A stretch of 64,000 nt of DNA from a virus, in IMG/VR virus record IMGVR_UViG_3300030099_006395, positions 1-64,000 of that record; one strand, written 5' to 3'. Below are positions 10,843-26,687 of the stretch, piece after piece; position 1 is the first letter of the stretch; each line of letters starts with the position of its first letter. The notes below the pieces were generated by a model. It worked only from the letters and a program-made list of their open reading frames with translations, made no database searches and was not told the DNA's origin. Made by a program: the position numbers and the translations under genes.

Positions 10843-12009
10843 ATGGCGTGTAATTGTCAGGGTGCGACAGTAAATTCATGTGGTTCATGTAGTTTTGATT
10901 GTGTAAATTCAGGAGATTCTTGTGGACCAATGGGATGTGGAACTTGTTCTGCTGGTGGTGGTGGCTCATCACTTTGTTTTGTAGCAGGAACTAAAGTAGC
11001 AATGGCTGATGGAACAGAAAAAAATATTGAAGAAATAGAAATAGGTGATGAAGTAAAATCGTGGAACGCCGTAACCAATGAATTTGAATCTAACAAAGTT
11101 ACTAAATTAATATCACCTATTCATGATGATATGGTTATTTTAACATGGGAACACACTTCTGTTAAAAGTACATTTGACCACCCATTTTGGTCTGTTGTTG
11201 ATAATGATTGGGTTTCATATAAACCAGAACTAACAAAAGAAAGATATGAATTTTGTAATGTAGAACAACTTGTGGTTGGAAATAAAGGTTTGTTTTTAAC
11301 TGATGATGGGGTGATTGAGTCTGAATTAATATCAATTGAAGAAGATATGGGAGAAGTTCAAACATACATTTTTGAATTGGATAATAATAATACATTTTTT
11401 GCTAATGGGATAGCCACTCATAATAAAGGAAGACCAGGACAAGGACCTCCAGCGGTTCAACCACAACCATCTCCACCTAAAGAACCATTTTTTATAAGAC
11501 CTGGAACAGGAAAAACTCCTGTAGTTTATAATAGAACTAGGGGGAGAAATAGAAGTTGTCCAAAAGGATATAGAATGCAAAACGGGATTTGTAAAGAAGT
11601 TAATAGAACCACTAATGTAATGGGTGGAATTAATCAAGGTTCTGTAGGAGCTGAAGGACCTCCAGAATGTTGTTACACGGGTTGCGGAACATTTCAGGTA
11701 TGGGTAGAATGTACTCAAGGTGGTGGTGCACCATACTATTTTTACGGTGACGGATTTGCAGCATCAGATGGATGTTCTTCACGTGGATGTCAGTTAGGTG
11801 GTGATGGTACTTTGGTAGGTGCATGTTTAGGTGCACAATCTGCTACTTATGGAACCGCTGAAGATATCTGTGGAAGTTGGCAAACTTGTAGTTGTCGTTG
11901 TCCAGTAGAAAATTGTGAAGACACATCAATTGTACCAACGGGTCAGGCTGCACCACCTAAAGGTGAGTTTAGCAGAGGTGGCCGTATAAGAAGACGTAGG
12001 AGAAGATAA
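10843..12009 (+). CDS. Cys-rich modular protein A with Hint domain and RGGRIRRRRRR tail
   Basis: 8 Cys in first 35 aa, Hint domain, Pro linker, CPKGYRMQNGIC module, CC-type Cys domain, poly-Arg tail. Confidence 0.8.
   Translation: MACNCQGATVNSCGSCSFDCVNSGDSCGPMGCGTCSAGGGGSSLCFVAGTKVAMADGTEKNIEEIEIGDEVKSWNAVTNEFESNKVTKLISPIHDDMVILTWEHTSVKSTFDHPFWSVVDNDWVSYKPELTKERYEFCNVEQLVVGNKGLFLTDDGVIESELISIEEDMGEVQTYIFELDNNNTFFANGIATHNKGRPGQGPPAVQPQPSPPKEPFFIRPGTGKTPVVYNRTRGRNRSCPKGYRMQNGICKEVNRTTNVMGGINQGSVGAEGPPECCYTGCGTFQVWVECTQGGGAPYYFYGDGFAASDGCSSRGCQLGGDGTLVGACLGAQSATYGTAEDICGSWQTCSCRCPVENCEDTSIVPTGQAAPPKGEFSRGGRIRRRRRR
10975..11424 (+). other. Hint (intein-like autoprocessing) domain, 150 aa, no endonuclease
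   Basis: Block A CFVAGTKVAMADGTEKNIEEIEIGDEV, block B STFDHPFW, block F/G TYIFELDNNNTFFANGIATHN, followed by Lys. Confidence 0.9.
11952..12008 (+). repeat. 57-nt dispersed repeat, copy 1 (encodes PPKGEFSRGGRIRRRRRR)
   Basis: 56/57 identical to 25977..26033. Confidence 0.95.
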
Positions 12010-12701
12010 TGAGAAAAGTTTGTCCAACCGGTTATACAATGATGAGAGGCGTTTGTAAGGAAATGTCAATTTCTCGCAGACCAAGGAGTAGAGATATACC
12101 TGGATGTTGTTCACAAGGTCCTGGTGAAATATCTTATATTTGTTCAGGTGGTGTAATGCATGCTTGGACTTGGATGTGTACTGATGGAGCTACATATAAT
12201 TTCGAATCAGCACAATGGGCGAATATAACACCATGTTATCATGATGGTTCAGTTAGTTGTACTTGTGTTGCTGATTGTTCGGGTATCGGTGGTTCGGATA
12301 AAGAAATACCAGGAGTAGCACCACCTAAAGGTAAGTTTAGAAGAGGTGGTAGATTATCACGTATGCAAAGGACAACATCAAAGAGTAGAGTACAATTAAA
12401 TAATAATAGAAATTGGATTCAAGTTAATTCTACTACTTTTAAATGGAATGGAAATGGACTTGCACCAACAGCACATGGATATTATATCACATGTCGTGAC
12501 CACGATAATCAAGTAAGTCATCAGATAGAATGTCATGTATCACATACTGGTGGTTCGATGCATGAAGATTGTCCAAATCCACCTTGTTATGATTTTGGAA
12601 CATCCGTTGCTGTATGTGATGGTGCTTGTCATGGAGAACAAGTGGGAATATCACCCATAGCAAGAGTAGGTGGTCGTATAAGAAGAAGGCGTAAAAAATA
12701 A
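12009..12701 (+). CDS. Cys-rich modular protein B (apparently two fused units)
   Basis: CPTGYTMMRGVC module; internal PPKGKFRRGGRL and terminal RVGGRIRRRRKK. Confidence 0.8.
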   Translation: MRKVCPTGYTMMRGVCKEMSISRRPRSRDIPGCCSQGPGEISYICSGGVMHAWTWMCTDGATYNFESAQWANITPCYHDGSVSCTCVADCSGIGGSDKEIPGVAPPKGKFRRGGRLSRMQRTTSKSRVQLNNNRNWIQVNSTTFKWNGNGLAPTAHGYYITCRDHDNQVSHQIECHVSHTGGSMHEDCPNPPCYDFGTSVAVCDGACHGEQVGISPIARVGGRIRRRRKK

Positions 12702-13561
12702 TGTCAGTAAAACCAATAACAAATAAACAAGTCGTAGCTTCATCTAATATTAATAGAGGAAAACAAATCTCTACAAAAGATACTAATGCCGATGGTAATA
12801 GTAGAAAAAGTTTTATACCTGGTATTAATTATAGTAACAATTATGCTATAACTTTAAAAGATATTGACACTGCAGTAATGACTCACATAAAAAATGTAAT
12901 AAAACCAAAAGTCAGAGAAGCTAATGAGACTATTGATGTTGGTGTAATGTATGGTAATGAAGAAAGATGGGCTTCTGTTAGAAAACGAGGAGTTATGAGA
13001 GACAAAAATGGTTCACTTATACTTCCATTGATAATGTTAAAAAGAACAGGTGTAGAAAAAAGTACATCAGTAGCTTCTTCGTTTGAACATGATGTTAAAA
13101 GAGAACATGATGTGGTTAGACATTCTAAATGGTCTAAAACAAATAGATATGATAGATTTGCAGTTCAAACTGGTAAAAAACCAGTAATAGAAAATTTATT
13201 AACAACGATGCCTAATTTCGTAAACATATCATATGATTTTGTTTTATGGACAAATTATATAGAACAAATGAATCCTTTAATTGAGACATTTACAGACCAA
13301 AATAATACATATTGGGGTGCTTCTGAAAATTATAAATTTTTATGTCAATTAGATTCTATATCAGACGCTTCAGAAATGAATCAAGATGGTGAAAGATTTA
13401 TAAAGTCAACATTTAGTGTTACAACAAAAGCTTATTTATTACCAGAATATACAAATTCTGTAGTTACAAATGAAATATCAAATTTAAGAAAAACCCTATC
13501 ACCATCAAAAGTTACTTTTGGATTTGAAGGTGATGCGAGTGATAAACAGGTGGGAAAATAA
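12701..13561 (+). CDS. tail terminator/sheath stabiliser (gp15-like)
   Basis: VMYGNEERW, LILPLIML and PNFVNISYDFVLWT..IEQMN.LIE motifs; located between neck and sheath. Confidence 0.65.
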   Translation: MSVKPITNKQVVASSNINRGKQISTKDTNADGNSRKSFIPGINYSNNYAITLKDIDTAVMTHIKNVIKPKVREANETIDVGVMYGNEERWASVRKRGVMRDKNGSLILPLIMLKRTGVEKSTSVASSFEHDVKREHDVVRHSKWSKTNRYDRFAVQTGKKPVIENLLTTMPNFVNISYDFVLWTNYIEQMNPLIETFTDQNNTYWGASENYKFLCQLDSISDASEMNQDGERFIKSTFSVTTKAYLLPEYTNSVVTNEISNLRKTLSPSKVTFGFEGDASDKQVGK

Positions 13562-14704
13562 ATGAGTTGTAATGAAAATCAAATCACGATAATAGTACAT
13601 GATGGTAATTATGTCGAATGTAGAGATCCTGAATCTATATGGCAAGGTTATCACTTTGGTAGTATGAGTAGTTGTGTGAATGCCAATGAGTGGAGTACAG
13701 ATATATTAAACGGGTGTCCAGATACAGGATGGAATTATTTATGTGGTTCTGAACAAGGAGAACATTGGGATTGTTTACGATGTGGAGACCCAATGGGAAC
13801 TATGGAATATTCAGGTGAAGGTCCTTGGCCATCTAGTCCATATTATGATTTTTACTGTGAAGATATAGTTGAACCACCTGTTCCACCTAAAGGGCCTTTT
13901 GGAAAACTTCCAAAAGATTCTTTTTTAAATCCTGGAGATAATCAAATTAGATCTAAAGATCATTTACTAAAACCTGGTGCTCAAAGTCGTAATAATCCGA
14001 TTAATATTTTCAGAAGAGATATAAGAGATAATAGAGACAAATCAAGAGATTGTCCAACAGGATATTCAATGAATCCAATAAAAGGTATTTGTCAAGAATC
14101 AATTTCAATTTATCAATCACAAAATAATAATAATTTCCCTCAACAGAGAAATGTACCGGCGTGTTGTACTCAACCTAACTCATCAGGAAAATGTTATTTT
14201 GGATGTGTACCATGTATAATGGGAGATGGACAAGCAGCACCAGGACCTCCACAATGTTTTCAGATTACTGATGCTCACACACATCCTTTTTCAGATGGTT
14301 GTAGTGGATATATGGGTACAGAACAAGTAATGGTAGATGTTGAAGTAAATGTTATAGATCCTGAAACAGGATTTCCTCAAATAAATCCAATAACAGGTGA
14401 AATAGTAACAGAAATTACACAAGAAGTTGATGTAGTACCTAGATATGGAACTTTATCTATGGCTTGTATGTTCAAATTAGAACAAATTAAACATCTACAA
14501 ACTACAGGATGTTCACATATGTATGGCCAATTGAATGGTAGTGTTTCTGTTTCATGTCATTGTTGGGCTTTTGAAAATCAAGAATGTCCTGGTCAAGGAG
14601 GTACAACAGATACTACTGGTAATACAGGTCCAAAAAGTGAGTTTAGAAGAGGTGGAAGAATTAGAAGAAGAGGTGGAAGAATTAGAAGAAGACGAAGAAG
14701 ATAA
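13562..14704 (+). CDS. Cys-rich modular protein C with duplicated RRGGRIR tail
   Basis: PPKGPF linker, CPTGYSMNPIKGIC module, PACCTQP domain, ends EFRRGGRIRRRGGRIRRRRRR. Confidence 0.8.
   Translation: MSCNENQITIIVHDGNYVECRDPESIWQGYHFGSMSSCVNANEWSTDILNGCPDTGWNYLCGSEQGEHWDCLRCGDPMGTMEYSGEGPWPSSPYYDFYCEDIVEPPVPPKGPFGKLPKDSFLNPGDNQIRSKDHLLKPGAQSRNNPINIFRRDIRDNRDKSRDCPTGYSMNPIKGICQESISIYQSQNNNNFPQQRNVPACCTQPNSSGKCYFGCVPCIMGDGQAAPGPPQCFQITDAHTHPFSDGCSGYMGTEQVMVDVEVNVIDPETGFPQINPITGEIVTEITQEVDVVPRYGTLSMACMFKLEQIKHLQTTGCSHMYGQLNGSVSVSCHCWAFENQECPGQGGTTDTTGNTGPKSEFRRGGRIRRRGGRIRRRRRR
14645..14686 (+). repeat. 21-nt perfect tandem duplication
   Basis: AGAAGAGGTGGAAGAATTAGA x2. Confidence 0.9.
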
Positions 14705-14733
14705 AAAAAACAACTTTTTAATTAATTTGATAT

Positions 14734-14746
14734 ATATTTATATATA
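14734..14746 (+). promoter_or_regulatory. putative late promoter
   Basis: ATATTTATATATA. Confidence 0.6.
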
Positions 14747-14772
14747 CTAAATAATAACAATGGAGGTTATAA

Positions 14773-15075
14773 ATGGCTGAAGAATCAAAATTAGCAGAAA
14801 AACTAAAAGACTCAACAAAATTTTCAGAAGAAGAAATGAAAACTGTAAAAGAAATACAACAGAGGTATGTTGATGTACAACATAAACTTGGACAACTTTC
14901 TGTAGCTGAAATAAGATTGAATCAACAATTAGATGCATTAAACATAACTAGAACAGAACTTAATGACACTTTTATAAAAACACAAAAAGAAGAAACTGAT
15001 TTTATAAAATCAATTACTGAAAAGTATGGTGATGGTGTTTTGAATCCTGAAACTGGTGAATACAACAAAAAATAA
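14773..15075 (+). CDS. small coiled-coil protein
   Basis: Heptad-like helix ending KYGDGVLNPETGEY; GGAGG SD. Confidence 0.7.
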   Translation: MAEESKLAEKLKDSTKFSEEEMKTVKEIQQRYVDVQHKLGQLSVAEIRLNQQLDALNITRTELNDTFIKTQKEETDFIKSITEKYGDGVLNPETGEYNKK

Positions 15076-15100
15076 GTTCGCTGTTTGAGCACTTACATAT

Positions 15101-15115
15101 CTATTTATATATGAA
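15101..15115 (+). promoter_or_regulatory. putative late promoter of sheath gene
   Basis: CTATTTATATATGAA followed by a 9-bp hairpin (TAGACTAAT/ATTAGTCTA, 15117-15143). Confidence 0.65.
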
Positions 15116-15188
15116 TTAGACTAATTGTGCACAGATTAGTCTATGTAGTCATACACAAAAATTTAATCGATTAATTAGGAGAAATCAC

Positions 15189-17438
15189 ATGGCAGAAAAA
15201 GTAGTTAGTCCAGGCGTATTTACCAATGAACTGGATCAATCTTTTTTACCTGCAGCTGTCGGAGAGATAGGTGCAGCAATTATAGGTCCTACGGTAAAAG
15301 GACCAGCTATGGTGCCAACAGTAGTTTCCTCATTTTCTGAATTTGAACAGAGATTTGGATCTACCGTAAAGAGTGGTAGTAATTACTACTCTTACTTGAC
15401 ATCAGTAGCAGCACAAAATTATTTAAGACATGGAAGTAAATTAACAGTTGTAAGAGTTCTTGATGGAACATTTTCAGAGGCAACAGCTTCTGTAGAAATA
15501 GCTAATTCTAGTGTTACTATAGGTTCAGCTTCTTTCATAATGGGTGGAACACCAGCACAATTTGTTGATGAAGAAGTTTATATCAATGGTGTAAACTTTA
15601 CATTTGTTGGAGCCGGAGACAAAATAGGCCTATTAAATAATTCAGCTACTCAAGTATTTGTAGCAACAGGTTCAACCACTCTTGCAACTGCAATTAATTT
15701 AAGAAACGCTATTCAATCAAACGCATCATTGACTGGATTAACACTTTCAGCATCAGTAAATTCTGGGTTTACTGTAGCAAACGATGCTACGATGAGTATT
15801 TTTTCAACAAGTGAATCAATAAATAACTTTTCAGTATCTAAATCAATGGCTACTGGAGCTGTAGGTTATTGGGGTACTGGAAGAGCAGGAATAGATAATG
15901 AAGCTACAAGTATAACATCTATGGGTGGTGCTGGTACTACAATTGCTGCAGGAAATTCTTCTAATGTATCTTTCAAACTACATACTTTGGGTGAAGGTTT
16001 AGTTATGAACAGTTTCGCTAGAAACGAAGCAATAGGAAGTAATAACACATTGTCTTCAGGTTCATCAGATAATTTAAGATATGAGATTACAAATGTAAAT
16101 CTTAAAAAAGGTACAATTACATTAGTAATTAGAAGAGGTGATGATACAGAAAAAAGAAAACAGGTATTAGAAACTTGGAATAATGTTTCTTTTGACCCGA
16201 AAGCTCCTAATTATATTGAAAAAATAATAGGAAGTCAATTTCATCAATTAGTAACTGACTCTGATGGTACGGCTTATATTCAACCAAAAGGTGACTATCC
16301 ACAACAATCTAAATATGTAAGAGTTGCGAAAGTAAATCAATTACCTGATTATTTAAATGAAAATGGTGAGGTATCTACAGCTTATGCAAATTCAGGTAGT
16401 TTTTTCCCATCAGTTGGAAGTGGTTCACTTCATGGAGCATTTGGTGGTGGTTCTGATGGAACTGCTGGAGTAGGTGGTACAAGATACGATGGTGGAAACA
16501 TCACAGCTAAATTCTATGATGATATAAATTCATCTAATAACCAACACATACAAGGATTTGATATTTCTGACCTTGCAAATGACAATGGTGGAACTGCATA
16601 CAACGACGCATTAAAACTATTATCAAATCAAGATGAATATGATATGAATCTACTTATGTTACCAGGTGTAACTAATGATGGTGGTTCGGCTATTATCAAT
16701 AAAGCTATTACGACTTGTGAGGAAAGAGGTGATTGTTTTGTAATCGCTGATCCAGTTGGGTATGGAGCAGTACAATCAGTAGCTATAACACAGGCTGAGT
16801 CATACGATTCAAATTACGCAGCTATGTATTGGCCTTGGGTACAAGTACAAGACAATAATCTTGGTAGAAATGTATGGGTACCGCCATCAGTAGTATTAGG
16901 TGGAATCTACGCATTCAATGATAAAGTAGCTCATCCATGGTTTGCACCAGCTGGTTTAAATCGTGGTGGAATTGATACAGCTATTCAAGCTGAAAGAAAA
17001 TTAACTCATGGAAACAGAGATACAATGTATGAGTCTAATTTGAATCCAATAGCTACATTCCCAGGACAAGGGGTGACTGTATTTGGACAAAAAACATTAC
17101 AGAAAAAATCATCAGCTCTTGATAGAGTAAATGTTAGAAGGTTAATGATTAGAGTTAAGAAATTCATTGCAGCTTCTTCAAGATTCCTTGTATTTGAACA
17201 AAACAATGTACAAACAAGAAGAAGATTCTTAAATATAGCTAATCCGTTTTTAGAGCAAGTACAATCTAATAGTGGTTTAAATGCATTTAAGATAGTAATG
17301 GATGATACAAATAATACTCCAGATGTTGTTGACAGAAATATCTTATTCGGACAGATATTCCTACAACCAACTAAAACTGCTGAGTTTATTGTATTAGACT
17401 TTACAATACAACCTACAGGAGCAACATTTCCTGAATAA
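15189..17438 (+). CDS. gp18: tail sheath protein
   Basis: SPGVFTNELD, IGPTVKGP, YWPW, PWFAPAGLNRG, GQKTLQ...DRVNVRRL and PTKTAEFI motifs. Confidence 0.95.
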   Translation: MAEKVVSPGVFTNELDQSFLPAAVGEIGAAIIGPTVKGPAMVPTVVSSFSEFEQRFGSTVKSGSNYYSYLTSVAAQNYLRHGSKLTVVRVLDGTFSEATASVEIANSSVTIGSASFIMGGTPAQFVDEEVYINGVNFTFVGAGDKIGLLNNSATQVFVATGSTTLATAINLRNAIQSNASLTGLTLSASVNSGFTVANDATMSIFSTSESINNFSVSKSMATGAVGYWGTGRAGIDNEATSITSMGGAGTTIAAGNSSNVSFKLHTLGEGLVMNSFARNEAIGSNNTLSSGSSDNLRYEITNVNLKKGTITLVIRRGDDTEKRKQVLETWNNVSFDPKAPNYIEKIIGSQFHQLVTDSDGTAYIQPKGDYPQQSKYVRVAKVNQLPDYLNENGEVSTAYANSGSFFPSVGSGSLHGAFGGGSDGTAGVGGTRYDGGNITAKFYDDINSSNNQHIQGFDISDLANDNGGTAYNDALKLLSNQDEYDMNLLMLPGVTNDGGSAIINKAITTCEERGDCFVIADPVGYGAVQSVAITQAESYDSNYAAMYWPWVQVQDNNLGRNVWVPPSVVLGGIYAFNDKVAHPWFAPAGLNRGGIDTAIQAERKLTHGNRDTMYESNLNPIATFPGQGVTVFGQKTLQKKSSALDRVNVRRLMIRVKKFIAASSRFLVFEQNNVQTRRRFLNIANPFLEQVQSNSGLNAFKIVMDDTNNTPDVVDRNILFGQIFLQPTKTAEFIVLDFTIQPTGATFPE

Positions 17439-17463
17439 TTAGGAAAAAATAAATAGAAAAAAT

Positions 17464-17496
17464 AAAGAGGCAGTAGAAATATTGCCTCTTTTTTTT
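17464..17496 (+). terminator. intrinsic terminator
   Basis: AAAGAGGCAGTA-GAAA-TATTGCCTCTTT plus T run. Confidence 0.85.
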
Positions 17497-17506
17497 GCTT
17501 TGTATG

Positions 17507-17521
17507 ATATTTATATATGAA
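17507..17521 (+). promoter_or_regulatory. putative late promoter
   Basis: ATATTTATATATGAA. Confidence 0.7.
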
Positions 17522-17565
17522 AATATGTAACAAGTTTATTGTAGTTACTAAATAGGAGAAAAATA

Positions 17566-18054: not shown

Positions 18055-18078
18055 ATTAAGTTGACATAATACGATATT

Positions 18079-18110
18079 AAAACCCTTGAAAAAAAATCAA
18101 GGGTTTTTTT
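18079..18110 (+). terminator. intrinsic terminator
   Basis: AAAACCCTTGA...TCAAGGGTTTT plus T run. Confidence 0.85.
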
Positions 18111-18119
18111 ATTTTGTAT

Positions 18120-18134
18120 ATATTTATATATGAA
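18120..18134 (+). promoter_or_regulatory. putative late promoter
   Basis: ATATTTATATATGAA. Confidence 0.7.
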
Positions 18135-18150
18135 TAAGTTATGAGGTTTT

Positions 18151-18624: not shown

Positions 18625-18626
18625 GT

Positions 18627-18809: not shown

Positions 18810-18818
18810 GAGCGTAAT

Positions 18819-19782: not shown

Positions 19783-19797
19783 TTTTACATAAAATTG

Positions 19798-19812
19798 ATA
19801 TTTATATATGAC
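19798..19812 (+). promoter_or_regulatory. putative late promoter
   Basis: ATATTTATATATGAC. Confidence 0.7.
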
Positions 19813-19836
19813 TAATTACATTATTAGGAGAATAAT

Positions 19837-20088
19837 ATGTCAATCAAATTAAAAGAATTATTAGATACAAAATCAAAACCTAAATTAATAGCTGAAGGAC
19901 TTTTTTCTAAATTAAAATCTTTATTTAAATTAGATAATAAAAAAATAAACACACTTAAAAAAGACAAAAAGTTTATGTCACATGTAAATAACATAAATTC
20001 TAGTTATAAAAGGTTATCAAAACAGATAGAAAAAGACTATGGTATAAAGATAAATTATCAAAAAATGAAAGCTAGTGATTTTTTATAA
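19837..20088 (+). CDS. small basic protein with KLKELL start
   Basis: AGGAG SD; MSIKLKELLD...LIAE. Confidence 0.65.
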   Translation: MSIKLKELLDTKSKPKLIAEGLFSKLKSLFKLDNKKINTLKKDKKFMSHVNNINSSYKRLSKQIEKDYGIKINYQKMKASDFL

Positions 20089-20100
20089 TAGGAATTTATA

Positions 20101-22110
20101 ATGGCTGATTTTAATCCCAGAAATATCAAAGCTTGGAAACAAGAAGTCAAAGCAGCTAAATCAGATTTGGCTGATATAGCAGATTTGTCTGCTCAGTTAG
20201 AAAAAAGTACTTTAAATTTATCAGAATCTCAAAAAACAAATAATAAATTCCTTGGTGAAGTTTTAGATGCATCAAAAGAAGCTGCAAAACAAGGAAAAAT
20301 GAATTTAGAACAATTAAAAGAGAGAGTAGATTTAATAAAAGATATTTCAAAAGGTGAAATGGATTTAAACCAAATAAAAGAAAAAGAAGAATCTATTGAA
20401 AAAGAAATAATAAAAATTAAAAGAAGATATATTGGTGCAAATAAAGAAAAAGGTGCACAATTAGTAGCTGAACTTGAAAAAAATCAAGAATTATTATCAC
20501 AAGAAAAAGAAAGAGTTTTGGCGGAGGAACGAAGTAAATCTTTATTAGAGGCTCAAGATATGCTTACAGGTGGAATGGCTTCAAAAATGAAAGAATTTAC
20601 AGAGGCTTTCCAAGCTGGGTTGGGACCTCAAGTGTTGATGTTAGCTGGTTTAGCTGCAATCGTAGCATTAGTAAGTAAATTTTCTGAAGGAATTGATGCT
20701 GTAGGTGATGAGTTTGGTGCCATAGGAGTTAAAGAATTTTCATCTGATTTGATGGCAGCAGATGCTGAGTTAGCAAGAATAGGAATGGACGCTGGAACAG
20801 CAGCTTCTATAACAACCGAATTAGCAGATAATTTTGGTGTTGGTGTAGAGGACGCCATTGGTATGGCAGCTGCAGTTGGTGATATGTCAAAGGCATTAGG
20901 GTTAAGTGTACAAGAGGGTGCACAATTGATGGGTACATTTACCACTATGGGTGGTATGACACCTCAACAAGCTGAAGACACTGCTAAAATGGCTGCTCAG
21001 TTAGCTAACGCTAACAATGTTAATCCATCTGCAGTATTAAAAGACATAGCTGGTAGTACAGAAACATTTGCTAAGTTTGGAAAAGATGGTGGTACTAATT
21101 TGGTAGAAGCAGCAGTTGTAGCTAAAAAGTTAGGAACTAATTTAGATTCTGTTGCAGATACAATGGAAGGTATGTTAGATTTTGCAAACTCTACTACAAA
21201 GGCTATGGAAGCTTCTGTACTAATTGGTAGAGATATAAATGTACAAAAATTACAAGAATTATCTTTAGCTGGTGATGCAGCTGGGGTATTAGAAGAACAA
21301 AAAAGATTATTAGGTGACGCTGAAAAGTTTAATTCTATGAATGTTATACAGAGAAAAGCTTTGGCAGAATCGTTAGGATTATCAGTCGAACAGGCTAACA
21401 AAATGGTTAACGCACAAGAAGACGCTGCAAGTTTAGCTGGTGAGTTAGCAAAACAACCTGGATTTGAAGAGTTAGTTGGTAAAGAAGCTTTATCAAGTCT
21501 TTCTCAATTGATGGGTTCATTAACTTCAATAGCGGCTGTGTTAACAAATGTATTAGGACCACCACTTAATTTTATTGTAGGTATTTTTGCAGAAGGTTTC
21601 AATGTAATCAATAGTGTTATTGATACATTGATGGAATTTCCAGCTTTGGCCACAATAGTTGGTGGTGCTTTGGCATTAATGAGTGGTAAATTTTTAGTGA
21701 CTGCTATTGCAGGTGTATGGGCTGGTGTAACATCTATTATGTCAATACCATTTGTAGGACCTGTTTTAGCTGGTATAGCTGCAGCAGGATTAATAGCTAC
21801 TATTTATAAGGCGATAGCTGGAGCTGGTTCACAAAAGGTTGGTGACGCTTTTATGCAAGGTGGAGGTGGTCCAATCGTAACCACACCACAAGGACAATCA
21901 TTTGAAGGTTCTGTAAGAGATGAAGTATTGATGGCACCTGGAATTGCAGGAGCTCAAGCAGCAACTGCAGCAGCTGGAGGTGGAGGAAATATGGCAGTTG
22001 TAGACGCTATAAATAATTTAAATACAACAACAAAAGAAAATAAACCACCATCGGCTAGAGATGTGGGTAAAAGAACAGGTAGAGCTTTAGAAGGAATAGG
22101 AGACGGATAA
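20101..22110 (+). CDS. tape measure protein
   Basis: Long helical Ala/Gly-rich protein with hydrophobic C-terminal segments, downstream of tube and chaperone. Confidence 0.85.
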   Translation: MADFNPRNIKAWKQEVKAAKSDLADIADLSAQLEKSTLNLSESQKTNNKFLGEVLDASKEAAKQGKMNLEQLKERVDLIKDISKGEMDLNQIKEKEESIEKEIIKIKRRYIGANKEKGAQLVAELEKNQELLSQEKERVLAEERSKSLLEAQDMLTGGMASKMKEFTEAFQAGLGPQVLMLAGLAAIVALVSKFSEGIDAVGDEFGAIGVKEFSSDLMAADAELARIGMDAGTAASITTELADNFGVGVEDAIGMAAAVGDMSKALGLSVQEGAQLMGTFTTMGGMTPQQAEDTAKMAAQLANANNVNPSAVLKDIAGSTETFAKFGKDGGTNLVEAAVVAKKLGTNLDSVADTMEGMLDFANSTTKAMEASVLIGRDINVQKLQELSLAGDAAGVLEEQKRLLGDAEKFNSMNVIQRKALAESLGLSVEQANKMVNAQEDAASLAGELAKQPGFEELVGKEALSSLSQLMGSLTSIAAVLTNVLGPPLNFIVGIFAEGFNVINSVIDTLMEFPALATIVGGALALMSGKFLVTAIAGVWAGVTSIMSIPFVGPVLAGIAAAGLIATIYKAIAGAGSQKVGDAFMQGGGGPIVTTPQGQSFEGSVRDEVLMAPGIAGAQAATAAAGGGGNMAVVDAINNLNTTTKENKPPSARDVGKRTGRALEGIGDG

Positions 22111-24263
22111 TGTCATTAAGGAATTTAAAAAGTGCATTTTCTGATTTTGTAAGAGAAACACAAGTAGAAGGTAGACATACAGAAAGTCCTACAACTGTTG
22201 TACCATTCTTACCATCTTCTGTTTTAGAGGCTACAACCTACGCTTATAATAGTATAACAGACGAACCAATAGATTTAGATGGTGGAATGGCACCAGTTAA
22301 TTTTCCATTATTAACTGATTTATTTAATAATCCAGAAACAACAACAACTCTAAATGATTCAACATCAAATATAAATTTTCAGGTTGGTTTAGGATTTCCA
22401 TCACCAAACATGAAAGCAGTTGTTTCAGGAGAAGGATTTCAAGCGAGTGTATCTTATATAAAAACAGCTACCGGTGATGTATTGGCTGCATCAGGTGCAG
22501 TTACGAAATTAGGAAAACTTTCTGATTTAGCTTCAAACATAGGTATAGACACACCTACTTTTGACTTTGGTGCAGATATATCAAGTCTTTTGGATGGGTT
22601 ACCAACACCACCTGAACCTCAATTTTTAAAATATGAAAATACTGTAGAAGAATTATTTAATTTAAATGGAGGGAATTTAACAGACAATTTTGCAAATACA
22701 GGTGATATTGATTCTACTCGTGGTATAATTTACCAAGTTTTAGGAGACCAAAATAAAGCAGGTTTGACTCCTGATTTTAGTTTTCAAGATAGAGTTCAAA
22801 ATATAGCTAATGTTGAATATATAAATCCAATAGCCTCCTTTAATGCAGGTAATATAGAATTTAAAGATGATTATTTTGAAGATATAGGACAATCATTAGG
22901 TGGACTTGCTAGTGCATTAACTCCTGACTTTATTGAAGATAGTTTAAAATTTTTATCAGAAAATGAAAAAATAAGAAATTTATTTTCTGGAATAGGTGGT
23001 GTATTTGAAAATATAGGTGGGTTTGGTAAGAGATTACCTCAACCTAAATTTCCTAAAATTGATATAGATTTTAGTAAAATAGGGAACTTCTTTAAAGGTG
23101 GTTCTGGATTGGGTGGTGGATTTTTAGGTGATTTAGGTAATAACATAAGTAAACTAGCTCAAGGGGTTGGTGACGCATTAAGTTCAGTAGCAGATACAAT
23201 AAAAGATGTTGGTGGACCAATTGCACAATCAGCTAAAGAATTAGCTTCTAACTTAAATCCATTAGATGAATTTACATTACCACAAATTAAATTACAAAAC
23301 CCAAGACAAACTTCTGTGACTGAATATGGTGGACAGGCTATTTTTAAACAAAATACACCGAGGGCTCTATCAAGAGAAATATCACTACGAACTACATCAC
23401 CTGTAGAAACTGCAGACAGAGCTTATGTAGAAAATGATGTATCTACACCATATGCTAAATTAGGAGAAGTTAGATATACAGGTGTGGTAAATGTACCAAA
23501 AGCCTATTATCCAAACGCCTCTATGGATGAAAAGGCTGGTGGAGATAAAATGACTTTAGCGGATGTTAAAGGTCCTTCATTGTCAGCTTATGATGACGCT
23601 ACACCTAACTTTGTAGATTCAGTCGAAAATGGAATGCCATTTTTCTTTAAAGATTTAAGAAACAATACTTATATAATATTTAGAGGTTATATAGATGGAA
23701 TAACAGATAATCCATCACCAAATTGGTCTGAACAAAATTATATAGGAAGAAGTGAAAGTAATTGGGTTTATACCGGAACAAGTAGAGAAATATCTTTTAA
23801 TTTTAAATTAGCAGCACAAACAGCTGTAGAATTAGATTCTATATATCTAAAAGTAAATAAATTAACTGGAATGGTTTATCCAGAATATATGGTAGACCAA
23901 TTTTTACAAACAGGAGGAAATGTTGATAACCCACAATTTAAAGTCAGAATGAAACCACCATTAGCTAGATTACGAATTGGTGATTTATTTGGTAATCCAT
24001 CAGGAGTAACTAGAGATGGTATTTTGGGTTTCATAAAAAGTATAAGTTATACTTGGCCTGACGAGTCACCTTGGGAGACAAGACATGGACAAAGAGTTCC
24101 TAAATTTTGTGATGTTTCTATTGGATGGCAAGTCATACATGAAAGAGTTCCTGATATGAATTATCCATTTTTCTATGGTTATAATCCTGATAGAGAAGAA
24201 GCTAGAGAATTACTAAATCAAAATAATTTAACTGCAGAAGAATTAGCTGCACTTGGAGGTTAA
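22110..24263 (+). CDS. baseplate/tail-tube initiator protein
   Basis: C-terminal FRGYIDGITDN.SPNW...YIGRSE...Y.G.SREISFNF...PPLARLRIGDLF...GFIKSISY tube-like fold motifs. Confidence 0.7.
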   Translation: MSLRNLKSAFSDFVRETQVEGRHTESPTTVVPFLPSSVLEATTYAYNSITDEPIDLDGGMAPVNFPLLTDLFNNPETTTTLNDSTSNINFQVGLGFPSPNMKAVVSGEGFQASVSYIKTATGDVLAASGAVTKLGKLSDLASNIGIDTPTFDFGADISSLLDGLPTPPEPQFLKYENTVEELFNLNGGNLTDNFANTGDIDSTRGIIYQVLGDQNKAGLTPDFSFQDRVQNIANVEYINPIASFNAGNIEFKDDYFEDIGQSLGGLASALTPDFIEDSLKFLSENEKIRNLFSGIGGVFENIGGFGKRLPQPKFPKIDIDFSKIGNFFKGGSGLGGGFLGDLGNNISKLAQGVGDALSSVADTIKDVGGPIAQSAKELASNLNPLDEFTLPQIKLQNPRQTSVTEYGGQAIFKQNTPRALSREISLRTTSPVETADRAYVENDVSTPYAKLGEVRYTGVVNVPKAYYPNASMDEKAGGDKMTLADVKGPSLSAYDDATPNFVDSVENGMPFFFKDLRNNTYIIFRGYIDGITDNPSPNWSEQNYIGRSESNWVYTGTSREISFNFKLAAQTAVELDSIYLKVNKLTGMVYPEYMVDQFLQTGGNVDNPQFKVRMKPPLARLRIGDLFGNPSGVTRDGILGFIKSISYTWPDESPWETRHGQRVPKFCDVSIGWQVIHERVPDMNYPFFYGYNPDREEARELLNQNNLTAEELAALGG

Positions 24264-24266
24264 TAT

Positions 24267-25349
24267 ATGCCAGCACCATTTTGTGATCCAGAATTAAATC
24301 CACCATACGGTAATTGCTGTATATTGGGTTACAATGACCCGTATCATGAGTATGCTGCAGTAGGATTAGGGCCCTTTGGCCAAACAGGAACAATGGCAGT
24401 TTGTAATTATAATCAATATTGTTATGACGATGCAGTAAGTTGTTTTGGTAGTTGTCCTAGCTCTGGACCAGGAGCACAAGCTTGTAATCAAGGTTGTAGA
24501 CATAGGTTGATGCATTGTTGTGATAAAACACCAGGAACTGAATATGAAAATAATTCAAACGCTGGTAGTATATGTGGTGAAGGTGCTATTGGTGATGAAG
24601 AATTGCAGGGTTACTATGAGTGTACATGTGGTAGTACAGCTGTTTTTATGCCTGATGGTGGAGGTCCACCAAAAATGAGACCACCACTAGCTACTTTTGA
24701 GAAACAACCAAATCAACCATTATCTGGTCAACATAATCAATCACATCCACCTGGAGGATATGCACAAAATAGATTAAGAAAAAATATGAATAAAACATCT
24801 AAATGTGGACCAAATGAAATGAGATTACCAAATGGACGTTGTCAAAGAACAAAATCAAAACAAATAGTAGCTTTAGATAATGGTAATGGTGATGTGGTAA
24901 TGGATTATGGATATGATTGTTGTAGTAGTCAATGTACTGATTTTTATGCTAGAGTTAGTTGTGGACAAGAAACAGTAACTTGTATGCTTCCACAAGGATG
25001 TAGTCAACTAAATTATAGTGAAAACTGGTGGAATCAAAATCTAAATGATCTTATTTTTGGTGACTATAGTAACTCTCAATATCAATATGGTGAAACTTTC
25101 GTAACAACATCATATGAGTTTGAACAAGTCAACGGTGGTGGATTATCTTGTTATGGTGGATGTAGTTATTCAGGTGGAGATTTGAGGTCAGCCTGTTTGG
25201 GCACTGGAGCTTCAGGTTATAGTGCATATAATAATCAATCAGTATGTGGTCAAGTAGTACGATGTAATTGTAAATGTTATGCTGATTGTGGAGCTTCAAT
25301 AATAGCTGATGAAGAAACTTCATTTGGAGGCAGTAAAGGTCCTTTTTAA
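24267..25349 (+). CDS. Cys-rich modular protein A-prime
   Basis: CC..C..F...V.C...ACLG...CG....C.C.C pattern shared with 10843..12009; ends KGPF. Confidence 0.8.
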   Translation: MPAPFCDPELNPPYGNCCILGYNDPYHEYAAVGLGPFGQTGTMAVCNYNQYCYDDAVSCFGSCPSSGPGAQACNQGCRHRLMHCCDKTPGTEYENNSNAGSICGEGAIGDEELQGYYECTCGSTAVFMPDGGGPPKMRPPLATFEKQPNQPLSGQHNQSHPPGGYAQNRLRKNMNKTSKCGPNEMRLPNGRCQRTKSKQIVALDNGNGDVVMDYGYDCCSSQCTDFYARVSCGQETVTCMLPQGCSQLNYSENWWNQNLNDLIFGDYSNSQYQYGETFVTTSYEFEQVNGGGLSCYGGCSYSGGDLRSACLGTGASGYSAYNNQSVCGQVVRCNCKCYADCGASIIADEETSFGGSKGPF

Positions 25350-25365
25350 TATGGAGATATAAATT

Positions 25366-26034
25366 ATGCCAAGAACAAAATGTCAAAGAGGATTTACAAT
25401 GAATACGTTAACAGGTATGTGTGAAGAAAATAGTAGACTTCAGACTCATACCCCACGTCGTACACAAAAAGCTAATGTTAGAAAAAATACACGAAATTTA
25501 AGAAGAGGAAACACAGGCGGCGGAAATTTACCATTTGCTGATTCACCATCATGTGGAGGAGAAGTATGGAGTGGTTGTTACACACCTTATCTTGAAGGAT
25601 GTAACATGCAATATTGGGATAGTTATTGTAATTGTATGAAAGATTATTATGATGCTATTGGTCAATCAACATTTTGGCAAGATGGTACATATCATTGTAG
25701 TCAAAGTGGTAATGACTGGGCACCTTGTTTATCATCAACAGAATGTATGAATCAAGGATGGTATAAAAATTGTACATGTCTACCACTAGATACAATGGGT
25801 GGGGGCAGTGGTGATTTTGTTTCATGTGCTTCTTTTCATTGTACTGGCTGTCATCATCCAAGTTCAGAAGACTATGTAGAAGGATTTGGTTTTCAGTATT
25901 TTTATTATCCACCTTGGTTTATTGATAATTGTATTCCACCTTTTGACTGGGCAGCCGGAGGAGGAATTGAAATAGGACCACCTAAAGGTGAGTTTAGTAG
26001 AGGTGGCCGTATAAGAAGACGTAGGAGAAGATAG
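25366..26034 (+). CDS. Cys-rich modular protein B-prime
   Basis: CQRGFTMNTLTGMC module; tail PPKGEFSRGGRIRRRRRR. Confidence 0.8.
   Translation: MPRTKCQRGFTMNTLTGMCEENSRLQTHTPRRTQKANVRKNTRNLRRGNTGGGNLPFADSPSCGGEVWSGCYTPYLEGCNMQYWDSYCNCMKDYYDAIGQSTFWQDGTYHCSQSGNDWAPCLSSTECMNQGWYKNCTCLPLDTMGGGSGDFVSCASFHCTGCHHPSSEDYVEGFGFQYFYYPPWFIDNCIPPFDWAAGGGIEIGPPKGEFSRGGRIRRRRRR
25977..26033 (+). repeat. 57-nt dispersed repeat, copy 2
   Basis: 56/57 identical to 11952..12008. Confidence 0.95.
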
Positions 26035-26687
26035 TGGCTAGGAGAGGTAGAAGAAATAGAAAAAATCCAAGAGTTTCAGTTTTTGCAATTCATCCTGTAC
26101 AAGGTGGTAATATTGGTGGAGATGATCAAGTATTACAAGAACCTGCATGTTGTACTCAACCAGACAGAACTTACTCATGTAGATATAAATGTGTTCCATG
26201 TTATCTTGCATCAAATCCAAATCAACTTGATCACCTACTTCCTGAAGGAAGCTTCTTTGAAGTCATGCCTGACTTTTGGACAGATAATTTAGCTGGTAGT
26301 CAATGTTTTGAAATAGTTTCAGTAGACCAAACATGTCTATCAGGAGGTGGTCCTGTAGCACATGGTATACCTAATTATGATTTTCAATCAGGTACTTATA
26401 ATTATTTAGCGGGTTCATTTGTACAAGAGGCGGAAGCGTGTCTTGGTAGATTAGTAAATATAATAGCGGGAGGTGCACAAACCTATGAAGGACATGGTGT
26501 ATGTCAATCCACTATGCCTGTAGGTGATTTTCAGTCAACTGTAAGTGGTCCTTGTATGTGTACATCTTATGCAAACTATCAATGTCCAGGACAGACAAAT
26601 CCAAATCCAGAAGAAAGTGAAGGAGATGGTCAACCAAAATTTGATTTTAGACGAGGTGGTAGAATAAACAGAAATAGGAGAAGATAA
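26034..26687 (+). CDS. Cys-rich modular protein C-prime
   Basis: PACCTQP..C...CVPC...QCF...C.C.......CPGQ shared with 13562..14704; tail FRRGGRINRNRRR. Confidence 0.8.
   Translation: MARRGRRNRKNPRVSVFAIHPVQGGNIGGDDQVLQEPACCTQPDRTYSCRYKCVPCYLASNPNQLDHLLPEGSFFEVMPDFWTDNLAGSQCFEIVSVDQTCLSGGGPVAHGIPNYDFQSGTYNYLAGSFVQEAEACLGRLVNIIAGGAQTYEGHGVCQSTMPVGDFQSTVSGPCMCTSYANYQCPGQTNPNPEESEGDGQPKFDFRRGGRINRNRRR

What the first reader, a model, noticed from the sequence alone, without database searches (positions are those of the whole stretch)
10843..26687. Duplicated three-gene cassette of divergent Cys-rich proteins with a conserved RGGRI-polyArg tail inside virion operons
Seen: six Cys/Gly-rich ORFs in two collinear sets: A 10843, B 12009, C 13562 (around the gp15-like gene) and A' 24267, B' 25366, C' 26034 (between tube-initiator and LysM genes). 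A/A' share a CC..C..F...V.C...ACLG...CG....C.C.C skeleton. C/C' share PACCTQP...CVPC...QCF...CPGQ. A, B, C and B' (and loosely A') share a C-x-x-G-(Y/F)-x-M...G-x-C-x-E mini-module. Five end in an (F-x-R/R-V)GGRI-polybasic tail, often after PPK, and B has an extra internal copy. Sequence between the Cys is highly divergent and no signal peptides are evident. I recognise no family. Inference: a modular, diversifying set of disulfide- or metal-stabilised virion-associated domains (decoration, adhesin or effector) addressed by a common C-terminal tag. This is the best candidate for an undescribed system here.
Basis: partly seen in the sequence, partly recalled or inferred. Interest (0 to 1): 0.9.

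Follow-up and report, generated by a model that had tools for sequence, protein, structure and literature searches.

The report
Shuffling cysteine-knob proteins in phage operons
An uncultured marine T4-like phage carries a very rare, uncatalogued family of bead-on-a-string proteins in its neck and baseplate operons: variable, probably disulfide-bonded knobs joined by one conserved arginine-rich linker. Whole knobs are gained and lost between near-identical phages, which fits an accessory surface or adhesion role that has not been tested.

Summary
All six Cys/Gly-rich ORFs, the hairpin mini-module and the RGGRI-polyArg tails are real. The duplication holds only for A/A' and C/C'. B and B' share nothing beyond the short adaptor motifs.

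The tail is not purely a C-terminal tag. It is half of a conserved inter-module linker: PPKxxF, then aromatic-R-R-G-G-R-I/V plus polyArg, then the Cys hairpin C-P-x-G-Y-x-M..G-x-C. This linker also occurs inside proteins and in N-terminal leaders. ORF boundaries fall between the polyArg run and the hairpin.

Cys counts are even in all 11 non-Hint modules and in 19 of 21 family proteins, which argues for disulfides. Payload domains are acidic and fall into at least 12 unrelated types, with no Pfam or PHROG match.

A phage 96% identical in DNA lacks one whole module, with both breakpoints in linker sequence. A profile search of 1.84 billion proteins found seven members.

The genome holds a third set outside the window, including an endonuclease/exonuclease/phosphatase enzyme, plus a 2178-aa dockerin protein.

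Best reading (about 0.4): late-expressed, externally exposed accessory virion or adhesion modules shuffled at the linker. Virion association, the tail's partner and any processing remain untested. This scan noted loosely similar Cys-module systems in other phage genomes.

The parts
10843..12009 (+). Gene A (388 aa). Layout: 44-aa peptide with 8 Cys, Hint domain, PPKEPF plus basic linker, hairpin, A-type Cys domain, PPKGEF-SRGGRI-R6 tail.
   Evidence: ORF. 24 Cys. Motif positions. Homologs in L002 and L012.
10975..11424 (+). Hint (BIL-like) autoprocessing domain of A, residues 45-194: Cys45, TFDH at 110, H193-N194, Lys at +1.
   Evidence: Pfam Hint-family hits, all under their curated cut-offs; AXH 38.5 bits. 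The homologous Hints in L049 pass the cut-offs, e.g. PF01079 at 64.8 bits. Residue positions.
11557..11592 (+). Hairpin mini-module of A (C-P-K-G-Y-R-M-Q-N-G-I-C), preceded by a basic stretch.
   Evidence: Regex hit. Aligned with the other hairpins.
11953..12006 (+). Tail of A (PPKGEF-SRGGRI-RRRRRR). Its DNA is 58/60 identical to the B' tail.
   Evidence: repeat family D1.
12009..12701 (+). Gene B (230 aa). Layout: N-terminal hairpin (12021-12056), short A-type unit, internal tail (12321-12371), second 6-Cys unit, C-terminal tail (12660-12698). Its start overlaps A's stop, and its stop overlaps the next gene's start.
   Evidence: The ortholog P0007 (137 aa) lacks the second unit.
12701..13561 (+). 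It is the fixed landmark between insertion slots 1 and 2.
   Evidence: Conserved in 80 or more related loci at 54-99% identity. No Pfam, PHROG or PDB match.
13562..14704 (+). Gene C (380 aa). Layout: unit 1 (8 Cys) ending PPKGPF (13883-13900), basic linker, hairpin (14051-14092), C-type domain, doubled tail (14630-14701).
   Evidence: Window positions 13998-14665 are replaced by 44 nt in L001, which is 96% identical in the flanks. dN/dS of unit 1 is 0.46.
24267..25349 (+). Gene A' (360 aa, 30 Cys). Layout: N-terminal 14-Cys domain, PPKMRP plus basic linker, degenerate hairpin (24804-24842), A-type domain, ending ..SKGPF without a tail.
   Evidence: Orthologs L081/L168 and P0006.
25366..26034 (+). 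Gene B' (222 aa, 16 Cys). Layout: N-terminal hairpin (25381-25422), unique payload, tail (25978-26031).
26034..26687 (+). Gene C' (217 aa, 12 Cys). Layout: Arg-rich N-terminal leader ending VQGG-NI (26034-26123), C-type domain, QPKFDF-RRGGRI-NRNRRR tail (26631-26684).
   Evidence: Only itself was found by the word-indexed search.
10461..10841 (+). Conserved 126-aa protein forming the upstream edge of slot 1. It has its own conserved basic C-terminus (..KLKALRxRRR).
14773..15075 (+). Conserved acidic 100-aa protein forming the downstream edge of slot 2. It is preceded by a late-promoter-like ATATTTATATAT motif.
22110..24263 (+). Conserved 717-aa protein following the tape measure. It forms the upstream edge of slot 3.
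26687..26980 (+). It forms the downstream edge of slot 3.
   Evidence: phrog_7145 at E 4.9e-13. No Pfam LysM hit.

Best explanation
The six genes belong to a lineage-specific family of at least ten genes in this phage. The proteins are accessory and of extracellular type, and they are built like a split polyprotein.

**Unit architecture.** Each unit is a variable, acidic domain, most likely all-disulfide. One conserved linker joins or ends the units. Its order is PPKxxF, then aromatic-R-R-G-G-R-I/V followed by polyArg, then a basic run, then a two-Cys beta-hairpin (C-P-x-G-Y-x-M..G-x-C) that resembles the C5-C6 loop of an EGF domain.

**How the genes came to be split.** Genes have been cut between the polyArg run and the hairpin. 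The Arg codons (AGGAGA..) serve as the Shine-Dalgarno sequence of the next gene, and the stop and start codons overlap. This produces 'tails' on upstream genes and N-terminal hairpins on downstream genes.

**Expression and turnover.** The genes have no late-promoter-like motif of their own. They sit coupled inside the late neck and baseplate operons, at a few fixed junctions that are empty in most relatives. Whole units are gained, lost and swapped by recombination within the conserved linker DNA.

**Inferred, not shown.** The proteins are made late without a signal peptide, oxidise after lysis, and act outside the cell as exposed appendages at the neck and baseplate. The variable knobs would provide binding specificity for the host envelope or for particles. 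The cationic linker would provide attachment, either to the acidic virion or DNA end, or to polyanionic cell surfaces. The Hint domain in A cuts or splices off its 44-aa, 8-Cys N-terminal peptide.
For: **Shown: a real, coding family.**
- Conserved Cys skeletons.
- dN/dS of 0.46 for C unit 1, with no Cys changed.
- Orthologs occur in other samples.
- Identical pieces occur in further marine DNA runs, not necessarily independent of the source sample, and a relative about 96% identical occurs in an estuary run filed in 2025.

**Shown: probably disulfide-type.**
- Cys counts are even in 11 of 11 modules and 19 of 21 proteins, against 27 even and 18 odd in other ORFs.
- Two paralogs elsewhere in the genome carry extracellular-type domains. 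The giant has a dockerin (E 5e-11). The 677-aa protein has an Exo_endo_phos domain at 25.6 bits, against a cut-off of 24.5.

**Shown: linker rather than C-terminal tag.**
- 44 basic-flanked GG sites lie at C-termini, internally and in N-terminal leaders.
- In distant relatives the motif directly precedes a C-terminal hairpin.
- Stops and starts overlap between the polyArg run and the hairpin, with AGGAG upstream.

**Shown: selection on the tail acts on the protein.** The RGGRI codons differ synonymously between copies, and GGT-GG is simply the genome's normal codon pair.

**Shown: shuffling.**
- A 668-nt module is an indel between genomes 96% identical, with both breakpoints in linker or tail sequence.
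- B's second unit is absent from P0007.
- L002 carries a C-type domain on an A-type chassis.
- The tail DNA is the largest direct-repeat family in the region, and the A and B' copies match at 58 of 60 positions.

**Shown: accessory genes at fixed slots.** The flanking genes are adjacent in 47, 84 and 13 loci. Inserts occur in 12, 6 and 1 loci.

**Context: late virion operons.**
- Structural neighbours.
- Late-promoter-like motifs occur only before the conserved genes.
- Strong terminator-like sites lie only after the sheath and tube genes; several weak consensus matches fall inside A, B, C and C'.
- An RNA-library contig matches gene C at 100% identity, alongside sheath pieces. This is a weak hint only.

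**Literature context.**
- Marine T4-like phages keep a hypervariable host-recognition cluster next to the neck gene gp14 (PMC7029224).
- BIL-type Hint domains sit in hypervariable regions of non-conserved bacterial proteins (PMC7765530).
Against: - No direct evidence places any of these proteins in the virion. There is no cultured relative: the best sheath match is 42.7% identical.
- A third set and the giant paralog lie among nuclease, Mom-like and kinase genes on the other strand. Virion-operon residence is therefore not universal.
- No fold could be obtained (pLDDT 35 and 40), so 'adhesin' is not supported by any binding domain.
- No partner for the tail or the hairpin was identified.
- No phage sulfhydryl oxidase was found.
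- The polyArg ends could be largely a by-product of Shine-Dalgarno and coupling constraints.
- The narrow family has 7 clusters among 1.84 billion proteins, which limits comparative power.
Confidence: 0.4

Rival explanations
1. The proteins are lysis-released soluble exoproteins, not virion parts. They accumulate late in the cytoplasm and are freed at lysis. They then act in seawater as enzymes, binders or antagonists, for example the EEP nuclease/phosphatase paralog. The cationic linkers would stick them to cells or particles.
For: - Extracellular-type features: even Cys counts, a dockerin and an EEP enzyme.
- No signal peptide.
- One set lies outside the structural operons.
- The genes are dispensable in most relatives.
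Against: - Six of the ten genes are inserted, with overlapping stops and starts, exactly between neck and baseplate genes.
- Distant relatives keep giant Cys-rich proteins in the same neck slot. This pattern is typical of structural appendages.
Confidence: 0.2
2. The proteins are internal or DNA-end-associated and are ejected with the genome. The RGG/polyArg tails bind packaged DNA in the manner of protamines or arginine-rich motifs. This would hold the proteins in the neck channel, tube or head so that they enter the host along with the DNA.
For: - The tails carry +6 to +13 charge and resemble RGG or arginine-rich nucleic-acid-binding motifs.
- The genes flank neck, tape-measure and hub genes, which line the DNA path.
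- The conserved 126-aa neighbour also ends in a basic tail.
Against: - Strictly even Cys counts, an EGF-like hairpin and dockerin-bearing paralogs point to stable disulfide knobs. Such knobs are poorly suited to passing through a tail tube.
- Rapid module turnover is unusual for internal proteins.
- By my own arithmetic, the total positive charge is negligible compared with the genome's negative charge.
Confidence: 0.12
3. The linker is a proteolytic processing site. The motif aromatic-x-R-G-G, followed by R-I/V, would be cut after GG, as in ubiquitin-like, adenain, ASFV or double-glycine-leader processing. Alternatively it would be cut within the polyArg run. Cutting would release single knobs and remove the basic leaders and tails. 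This could hold alongside any of the localisation models.
For: - The motif marks every module boundary, and GG is its fixed core.
- Several proteins end naturally at PPKxxF, just before the motif: A', P0006, the L002 homolog of A, the L081 homolog of A' and g90097.
- N-terminal Arg-rich leaders end in aromatic-x-GG.
- The family already uses autoproteolysis through Hint domains.
Against: - No C39, JAB, C48 or S77 protease was found in the 113-kb record, although the record is only 63% complete.
- The motif does not fit the hydrophobic-P4 rule of adenain-type sites (my own knowledge).
- GG-plus-basic composition is also what a plain flexible linker would have.
Confidence: 0.2
4. The tail and hairpin have no function of their own. 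On this reading the tails and N-terminal hairpins are only scars of splitting a multi-domain gene at the one place where the codons happen to form a ribosome-binding site. The linker is then merely a spacer.
For: - ORF boundaries coincide with AGGAG-containing Arg codons and with TAATG or TAGTG overlaps.
- Every family protein keeps at least one half of the linker, as random splitting would predict.
Against: - RGGRI is kept through synonymous codon changes, and across relatives with otherwise unalignable payloads.
- PPKxxF and the hairpin are the most conserved elements of the family.
- L001 rebuilt a tail after losing a module.
Confidence: 0.08

Closest known systems
Type-A bacterial intein-like (BIL) / Hint domains in hypervariable non-conserved proteins (Amitai 2003 and Dassa 2004, as reviewed in PMC7765530; MafB-type polymorphic toxins, PMC4287609)
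   Same: - A carries an intact Hint: Cys1, TxxH, a terminal HN, and a non-nucleophilic +1 Lys.
- It sits inside a hypervariable, non-conserved, extracellular-type protein.
- Relatives carry one to three Hint domains.
- Modules are swapped at a conserved junction, as in polymorphic-toxin loci.
   Different: - The host is a phage structural operon.
- No toxin domain, immunity gene or trafficking domain is present.
- Only one of the six genes has a Hint.
- The conserved junction is an Arg-rich linker plus a Cys hairpin, which is not a known pre-toxin motif.
Hypervariable host-recognition clusters next to the neck genes of marine T4-like myophages (pelagimyophages and cyanomyophages; PMC7029224)
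   Same: - A variable island sits inside an otherwise syntenic structural region, near the neck genes.
- Content differs between close relatives.
- It includes very large fibre-like proteins.
   Different: - The variable units here are small Cys-knob modules with a shared linker.
- They are inserted at several precise gene junctions: two neck slots, one or two baseplate slots, and an island on the other strand.
- No recognisable tail-fibre or glycosyltransferase domains are present.
Dispensable virion decoration and appendage proteins (T4 Hoc, and fibritin/wac encoded in the neck gene cluster)
   Same: Non-essential, late-expressed proteins encoded among structural genes. They are proposed to add adhesion rather than to build the particle.
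   Different: - No Ig-like or coiled-coil domains.
- Disulfide-rich knobs.
- Attachment to the virion has not been shown.
EGF-like domain, C5-C6 beta-hairpin (C-x-x-G-[YF]-x..G-x-x-C)
   Same: The mini-module has the same spacing and the same Gly and aromatic residues. It has two Cys that could close one hairpin. AlphaFold2 drew two short strands there at low confidence.
   Different: Only 2 of the 6 EGF cysteines are present. There is no Pfam EGF hit. This is a resemblance, not membership.
Earlier notes of this scan on other phage genomes: e1-5660997 (plug-in four-Cys module that docks cargo on a tail hub) and e1-5806827 (Hint between two Cys-rich modules of a fibre protein)
   Different: These are different genomes, and no sequence look-alikes were found. 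The module here has two Cys and is coupled to an Arg-rich linker. No docking strand was identified here.

Membership tests
Hint / type-A BIL domain (A, residues 45-194) | N-terminal nucleophile (Cys or Ser) at position 1 of the domain | tested here: met
   Cys45 in C-F-V-A-G-T-K.
Hint / type-A BIL domain (A, residues 45-194) | Block B TxxH motif and a C-terminal His-Asn | tested here: met
   TFDH at residue 110; H193-N194.
Hint / type-A BIL domain (A, residues 45-194) | Profile match above the curated threshold | tested here: inconclusive
   All of A's Hint-family hits fall below their cut-offs (e.g. Hom_end_hint 29.1 against 32.1). Only AXH passes, at 38.5 against 33. The clearly similar Hints in L049 pass several cut-offs, e.g. 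PF01079 at 64.8 against 29.7.
Canonical intein | Cys, Ser or Thr nucleophile at +1 of the C-extein, and insertion in a conserved host protein | tested here: not met
   The +1 residue is Lys195. The host protein is hypervariable. No endonuclease domain is present.
Hint / BIL | Autocleavage or splicing activity | not testable with these tools
   Needs expression and mass spectrometry.
EGF-like domain | Six Cys with the 1-3, 2-4, 5-6 pattern, and a Pfam EGF match | tested here: not met
   The hairpin has two Cys only. No EGF hit at E up to 1.
Sortase / exosortase-type C-terminal sorting signals (LPXTG, PEP-CTERM, GlyGly-CTERM) | Short motif, then a hydrophobic TM helix, then a basic cluster | tested here: not met
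   No hydrophobic segment anywhere (maximum KD15 of 1.2 or less). Only 6 residues separate PPKGxF from the polyArg run.
Polymorphic toxin cassettes (CDI / Rhs / MafB type) | Variable C-terminal toxin domain with a cognate immunity gene and an N-terminal trafficking domain | tested here: not met
   No toxin, immunity or trafficking family in Pfam or PHROGs. Only the junction-mediated shuffling and the Hint are shared.
Ig-like phage decoration proteins (Hoc-like) | Ig-like / BIG / FN3 domains plus a capsid-binding domain | tested here: not met
   No such Pfam or PHROG hit.
Double-glycine or ubiquitin-like GG processing systems | GG cleavage motif together with a cognate protease (C39, JAB/MPN, or C48/adenain-like) | tested here: inconclusive
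   The GG motif is present at every boundary. No C39, JAB or C48 protease was found, but the record is only 63% complete.
Disulfide-rich extracellular domains (general class) | All Cys paired, so counts are even in every domain | tested here: met
   11 of 11 modules and 19 of 21 proteins are even (one-sided p = 1.1e-4). The background is 27 even to 18 odd. Actual bonding was not tested.

The most novel reading that the evidence does not exclude
The conserved linker may be a connector system rather than a spacer. In the first version, the tail of one protein and the hairpin of another pair up, or one of them docks on a conserved neck or baseplate protein. Variable disulfide knobs would then be strung onto the virion as a plug-in display. 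In the second version, the thioester made by the Hint domain is resolved by the invariant Lys of a PPK motif, which would link modules covalently in a manner analogous to sortase-pilin lysine chemistry. Either version would be a new way for a phage to assemble exchangeable surface modules.
Probability: 0.08. Interest if true: 0.85.

Novelty: new variant of a known kind. Interest (0 to 1): 0.6.

Why it matters
Tailed phages of the open ocean are known to keep hypervariable islands for host recognition, but how those islands are built is poorly understood. This locus gives an unusually clear picture. Small knob domains, most likely disulfide-bonded, are flanked by one conserved linker. The linker acts as the protein joint, as the recombination substrate (58 of 60 nt are identical between two otherwise unrelated genes), and as the ribosome-binding site that lets a module be cut out as its own gene.

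If the knobs prove to be virion-displayed, the locus would be a natural plug-and-play display scaffold. It would also give a route to host-range or particle-adhesion variation in a phage group that is abundant in marine metagenomes, with 600 or more tube-protein relatives in IMG/VR.

The locus also raises a concrete biochemical question: how does a bacterial virus with no signal peptides and no recognisable oxidase make proteins with up to 30 paired cysteines?

The Hint domain, with a real downstream partner and a 44-aa, 8-Cys cargo, is a tractable test case for BIL chemistry.

Tried and rejected
- **Structure prediction.** AlphaFold2 gave unusable models for C' (4-row alignment, mean pLDDT 35) and for the g90755 paralog (mean pLDDT 40). 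No fold search was run.
- **Complex prediction.** The 286-aa neck protein with B returned no verdict (score 0.00). This is not evidence either way.
- **Family searches.**
  - The word-indexed search with C' found only itself.
  - The ESM Atlas gave no usable hit for C' or A'.
  - tblastn of A' and C, and blastn of the region, against 50,697 GenBank phages found nothing.
- **Exact tail pattern.** The pattern F-x-R-G-G-R-I-R-R-R-R, scanned across IMG/VR, gave two chance hits in non-coding frames.
- **Metagenome scan.** The first attempt had no usable conserved stretch. The second found only the L081 phage again.
The genomic contexts of P0004, P0007 and P0008 are therefore unknown.
- **Enzymes sought in the genome, all without a match:** Erv1/ALR oxidase, JAB, C39, C48, S77 prohead protease and cohesin. 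The record is 63% complete, so absence is not shown.
- **A DNA-level signal in the invariant AGGTGG of the tails.** Rejected. GGT-GG is the normal Gly-Gly codon pair here (35 of 42), and L001 and L002 use GGC-GGA.
- **A CCACCT/AGGTGG hairpin in the tail DNA.** It is present in only 3 of 6 copies, so it was dropped.
- **RNA elements and terminators.** No Rfam family matches the region. No strong terminator-like site lies in the cassettes, only weak consensus matches, and none of the repeated late-promoter-like motifs does.
- **Read laying.** RNA-library contigs cover only scraps, and parts without cover carry no weight.
- **Spurious ORFs.** Rejected on dN/dS, Cys conservation and the existence of orthologs.
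- **Sorting-signal reading of the tail.** Rejected because there is no TM segment.

Full report
**What the window is.** The window is the first 64 kb of a 113,475-bp single-contig virus record, about 31% G+C and estimated 63% complete. It is a distant T4-like myovirus. The 749-aa sheath protein is at best 42.7% identical to that of Flavobacterium phage immuto. Neighbouring genes match a head-tail adaptor, a T4 baseplate protein, a tape measure and a baseplate wedge subunit. Near-identical DNA occurs in marine metagenomes from nine studies.

**Checking the observation.**
- All six ORFs are present, with 5.5-8.3% Cys against a genome median of about 1%.
- Five end in GGRI plus a polybasic run. 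B has an internal copy, C has a doubled copy, and A' ends ..SKGPF.
- The hairpin mini-module is found only in family proteins across the whole genome.
- Composition-adjusted BLASTP supports A~A' (2e-4 and 6e-4) and C~C' (4e-7), but not B~B' (0.13). B's first unit is a short A-type domain.
- None of the six has a hydrophobic segment, and each start has a Shine-Dalgarno-like sequence upstream.
- A also contains a Hint domain at residues 45-194, with Cys45, TFDH, HN and Lys at +1, behind a 44-aa peptide with 8 Cys.

**Anatomy.** Reading the proteins together shows a repeated unit:
- a basic run and a two-Cys hairpin;
- a variable acidic Cys domain;
- P-P-K-x-x-F;
- aromatic-R-R-G-G-R-I/V followed by polyArg.

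A, B, C and A' each hold two units, while B' and C' hold one. Gene boundaries fall exactly between the polyArg run and the next hairpin, with overlapping stop and start codons (TAATG or TAGTG). The last Arg codons spell AGGAG for the next gene.

The same GG-basic motif also occurs in N-terminal leaders: in C', in the paralog g90755, in the 2178-aa giant and in L081_267. A survey found 44 such sites in about 25 proteins. In more distant relatives the motif sits directly before a C-terminal hairpin at the end of huge Cys-rich proteins.

The tail is therefore half of a conserved linker, not purely a C-terminal tag. Its conservation acts at the protein level. The RGGRI codons vary synonymously between copies, and the GGT-GG pair is simply the genome's normal usage.

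**Disulfides.** Every non-Hint module has an even number of Cys (11 of 11). Nineteen of 21 family proteins are even. The two exceptions are explained by the lone catalytic Cys of a Hint domain and by a doubtful start codon. Other ORFs of the genome split 27 even to 18 odd. Payload domains are acidic and the linkers strongly basic. No Erv1-type oxidase was found. A thioredoxin gene with an in-frame TGA lies at 35106-35402.

**More members.** Outside the window, three collinear genes on the minus strand (91858-88063) carry the same adaptors:
- one has a polyArg/GGRL leader, a hairpin and a non-Cys payload;
- one has a hairpin and an A-like domain, ending ..QPKGPF;
- one, of 677 aa, starts with the hairpin and carries an Exo_endo_phos domain just above the Pfam cut-off, plus a sub-threshold, dockerin-like segment (E 0.34).

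A 2178-aa protein with 136 Cys has a dockerin domain and an Arg-rich leader ending in GG.

**Rarity.** No Pfam or PHROG family matches any payload. GenBank phages, the Atlas and the word-indexed search found nothing. A profile of the A-type domain, run by HMMER against 1.84 billion representatives, found seven proteins. Two are the window's own A' and B, and all seven share the same architecture.

**Variation.**
- L001 is 96% identical in DNA on both sides. Yet 668 nt, which encode the hairpin and the C-type domain of C, are replaced by 44 nt. The breakpoints lie in the basic linker and in the tail, and a tail is retained.
- P0007 is B without its second unit.
- The L002 homolog of A has a C-type domain where A has an A-type domain.
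- About a dozen unrelated payload types occur among 26 proteins.
- The tail DNA is the largest direct-repeat family in the region. The A and B' copies match at 58 of 60 positions, although the genes are otherwise unalignable (also noted as e1-6025656).
- C unit 1 has dN/dS of 0.46, against 0-0.06 for four of its five conserved neighbours and 0.33 for the sheath, with every Cys kept.

**Slots.** Across 161 related loci the flanking genes are usually adjacent:

| Junction | Adjacent | With insert |
|---|---|---|
| 126-aa protein to 286-aa protein | 47 | 12 |
| 286-aa protein to 100-aa protein | 84 | 6 |
| 717-aa protein to wedge subunit | 13 | 1 |

Fourteen further truncated loci have Cys-rich ORFs upstream of the 286-aa gene. 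These reach 1431 aa. One has three tandem Hint domains followed by RGGR repeats and a terminal hairpin. Late-promoter-like ATATTTATATAT motifs precede only the conserved genes. The cassettes have no such motif and no strong terminator-like site of their own.

**Reads.**
- Identical contig pieces covering both cassettes occur in other marine DNA runs.
- An estuary run filed in 2025 holds a relative about 96% identical, with A, C, A'-B' and C'.
- An RNA-library contig matches gene C at 100% identity, alongside sheath pieces. This is a weak hint of transcription only.

**Interpretation.**
- *Firm:* this is a real, uncatalogued, very narrow family of modular proteins that evolves by whole-module shuffling at a conserved linker. 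It is embedded mainly in late neck and baseplate operons.
- *Strongly suggested by Cys parity but not tested:* the modules are disulfide-bonded.
- *Inferred:* the proteins act outside the cell as exposed accessory appendages or adhesins. This rests on the extracellular-type features and the operon context. It also rests on the analogy with hypervariable host-recognition clusters beside the neck genes of marine T4-like phages (PMC7029224), and with BIL-type Hint domains in hypervariable regions of non-conserved bacterial proteins (PMC7765530).
- *Still open:* release as soluble exoproteins at lysis, DNA-bound internal proteins, proteolytic processing at the GG/polyArg sites, and a purely spacer role for the linker.

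**What failed.** Both structure predictions were of low confidence. The one complex job gave no verdict.

Noticed in passing
genome 88063-91858, minus strand (outside the window; L162:64-3859): A third collinear trio of hairpin-bearing genes lies among nuclease, Mom-like and kinase genes. It comprises a 367-aa protein with an N-terminal polyArg/GGRL leader, a 218-aa A-like protein ending QPKGPF, and a 677-aa protein with an N-terminal hairpin, a dockerin-like segment and an Exo_endo_phos domain (25.6 bits).
   Followed up: partly
genome 95874-102410, minus strand (L162:7875-14411): A 2178-aa protein with 136 Cys (an even number), a type I dockerin domain (E 5e-11) and an Arg-rich N-terminal leader ending M-G-Y-G-G-N-S-I. 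No cohesin was found in the record.
   Followed up: partly
window 34670-35402: A 142-aa protein with 12 Cys, starting M-A-R-R-R, lies immediately upstream of a thioredoxin gene. The thioredoxin reading frame contains one in-frame TGA (PF00085, 69 bits). An earlier scan note reads this as a selenoprotein.
   Followed up: no
window 14729, 15096-15118, 17507, 18115-18137, 19798: A repeated ATATTTATATATG motif sits just upstream of the 100-aa gene, the sheath, tube and lysozyme genes and the 83-aa gene. It is probably this phage's late promoter. Strong terminator hairpins follow the sheath gene (17464-17491) and the tube gene (18079-18107).
   Followed up: no
L049:2884-5670: A 928-aa protein in the same neck slot of a relative has a Cys-rich N-terminal region and three tandem Hint domains (each C-F-...-H-N). 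These are followed by a run of RGGR/RGRGR repeats and a C-terminal hairpin.
   Followed up: partly
L038, L039, L044, L046, L049, L072 (ORFs of 262-283 aa upstream of the 286-aa gene): A second recurrent occupant of the slot has a G-P-S-H-E-E-G-G-I-type motif, K-G-G-x-V repeats, a hairpin and a His-rich end (..C-P-P-x-x-x-C-H-S-H). It resembles tape-measure and endolysin PHROGs only weakly.
   Followed up: no
window 10461-10841: The conserved 126-aa neck-region protein ends in K-L-K-A-L-R-x-R-R-R in nearly all relatives. Its last codons (AATAGGAGAAGG) closely resemble the end of the C' tail.
   Followed up: partly
window 14655-14692: Contigs in two DNA runs 'go back 38' here. This suggests that the copy number of the GGRIRRR repeat in C's tail varies within populations.
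   Followed up: no
related loci such as L044, L046, L048, L057: Some relatives carry two consecutive sheath-like genes (about 620 and 730-746 aa), where the window has one.
   Followed up: no
whole record: A protein identical to the g90755 paralog sits on a 151-kb contig elsewhere, and CheckV rates this record 63% complete. The 113-kb record is therefore probably a fragment.
   Followed up: no
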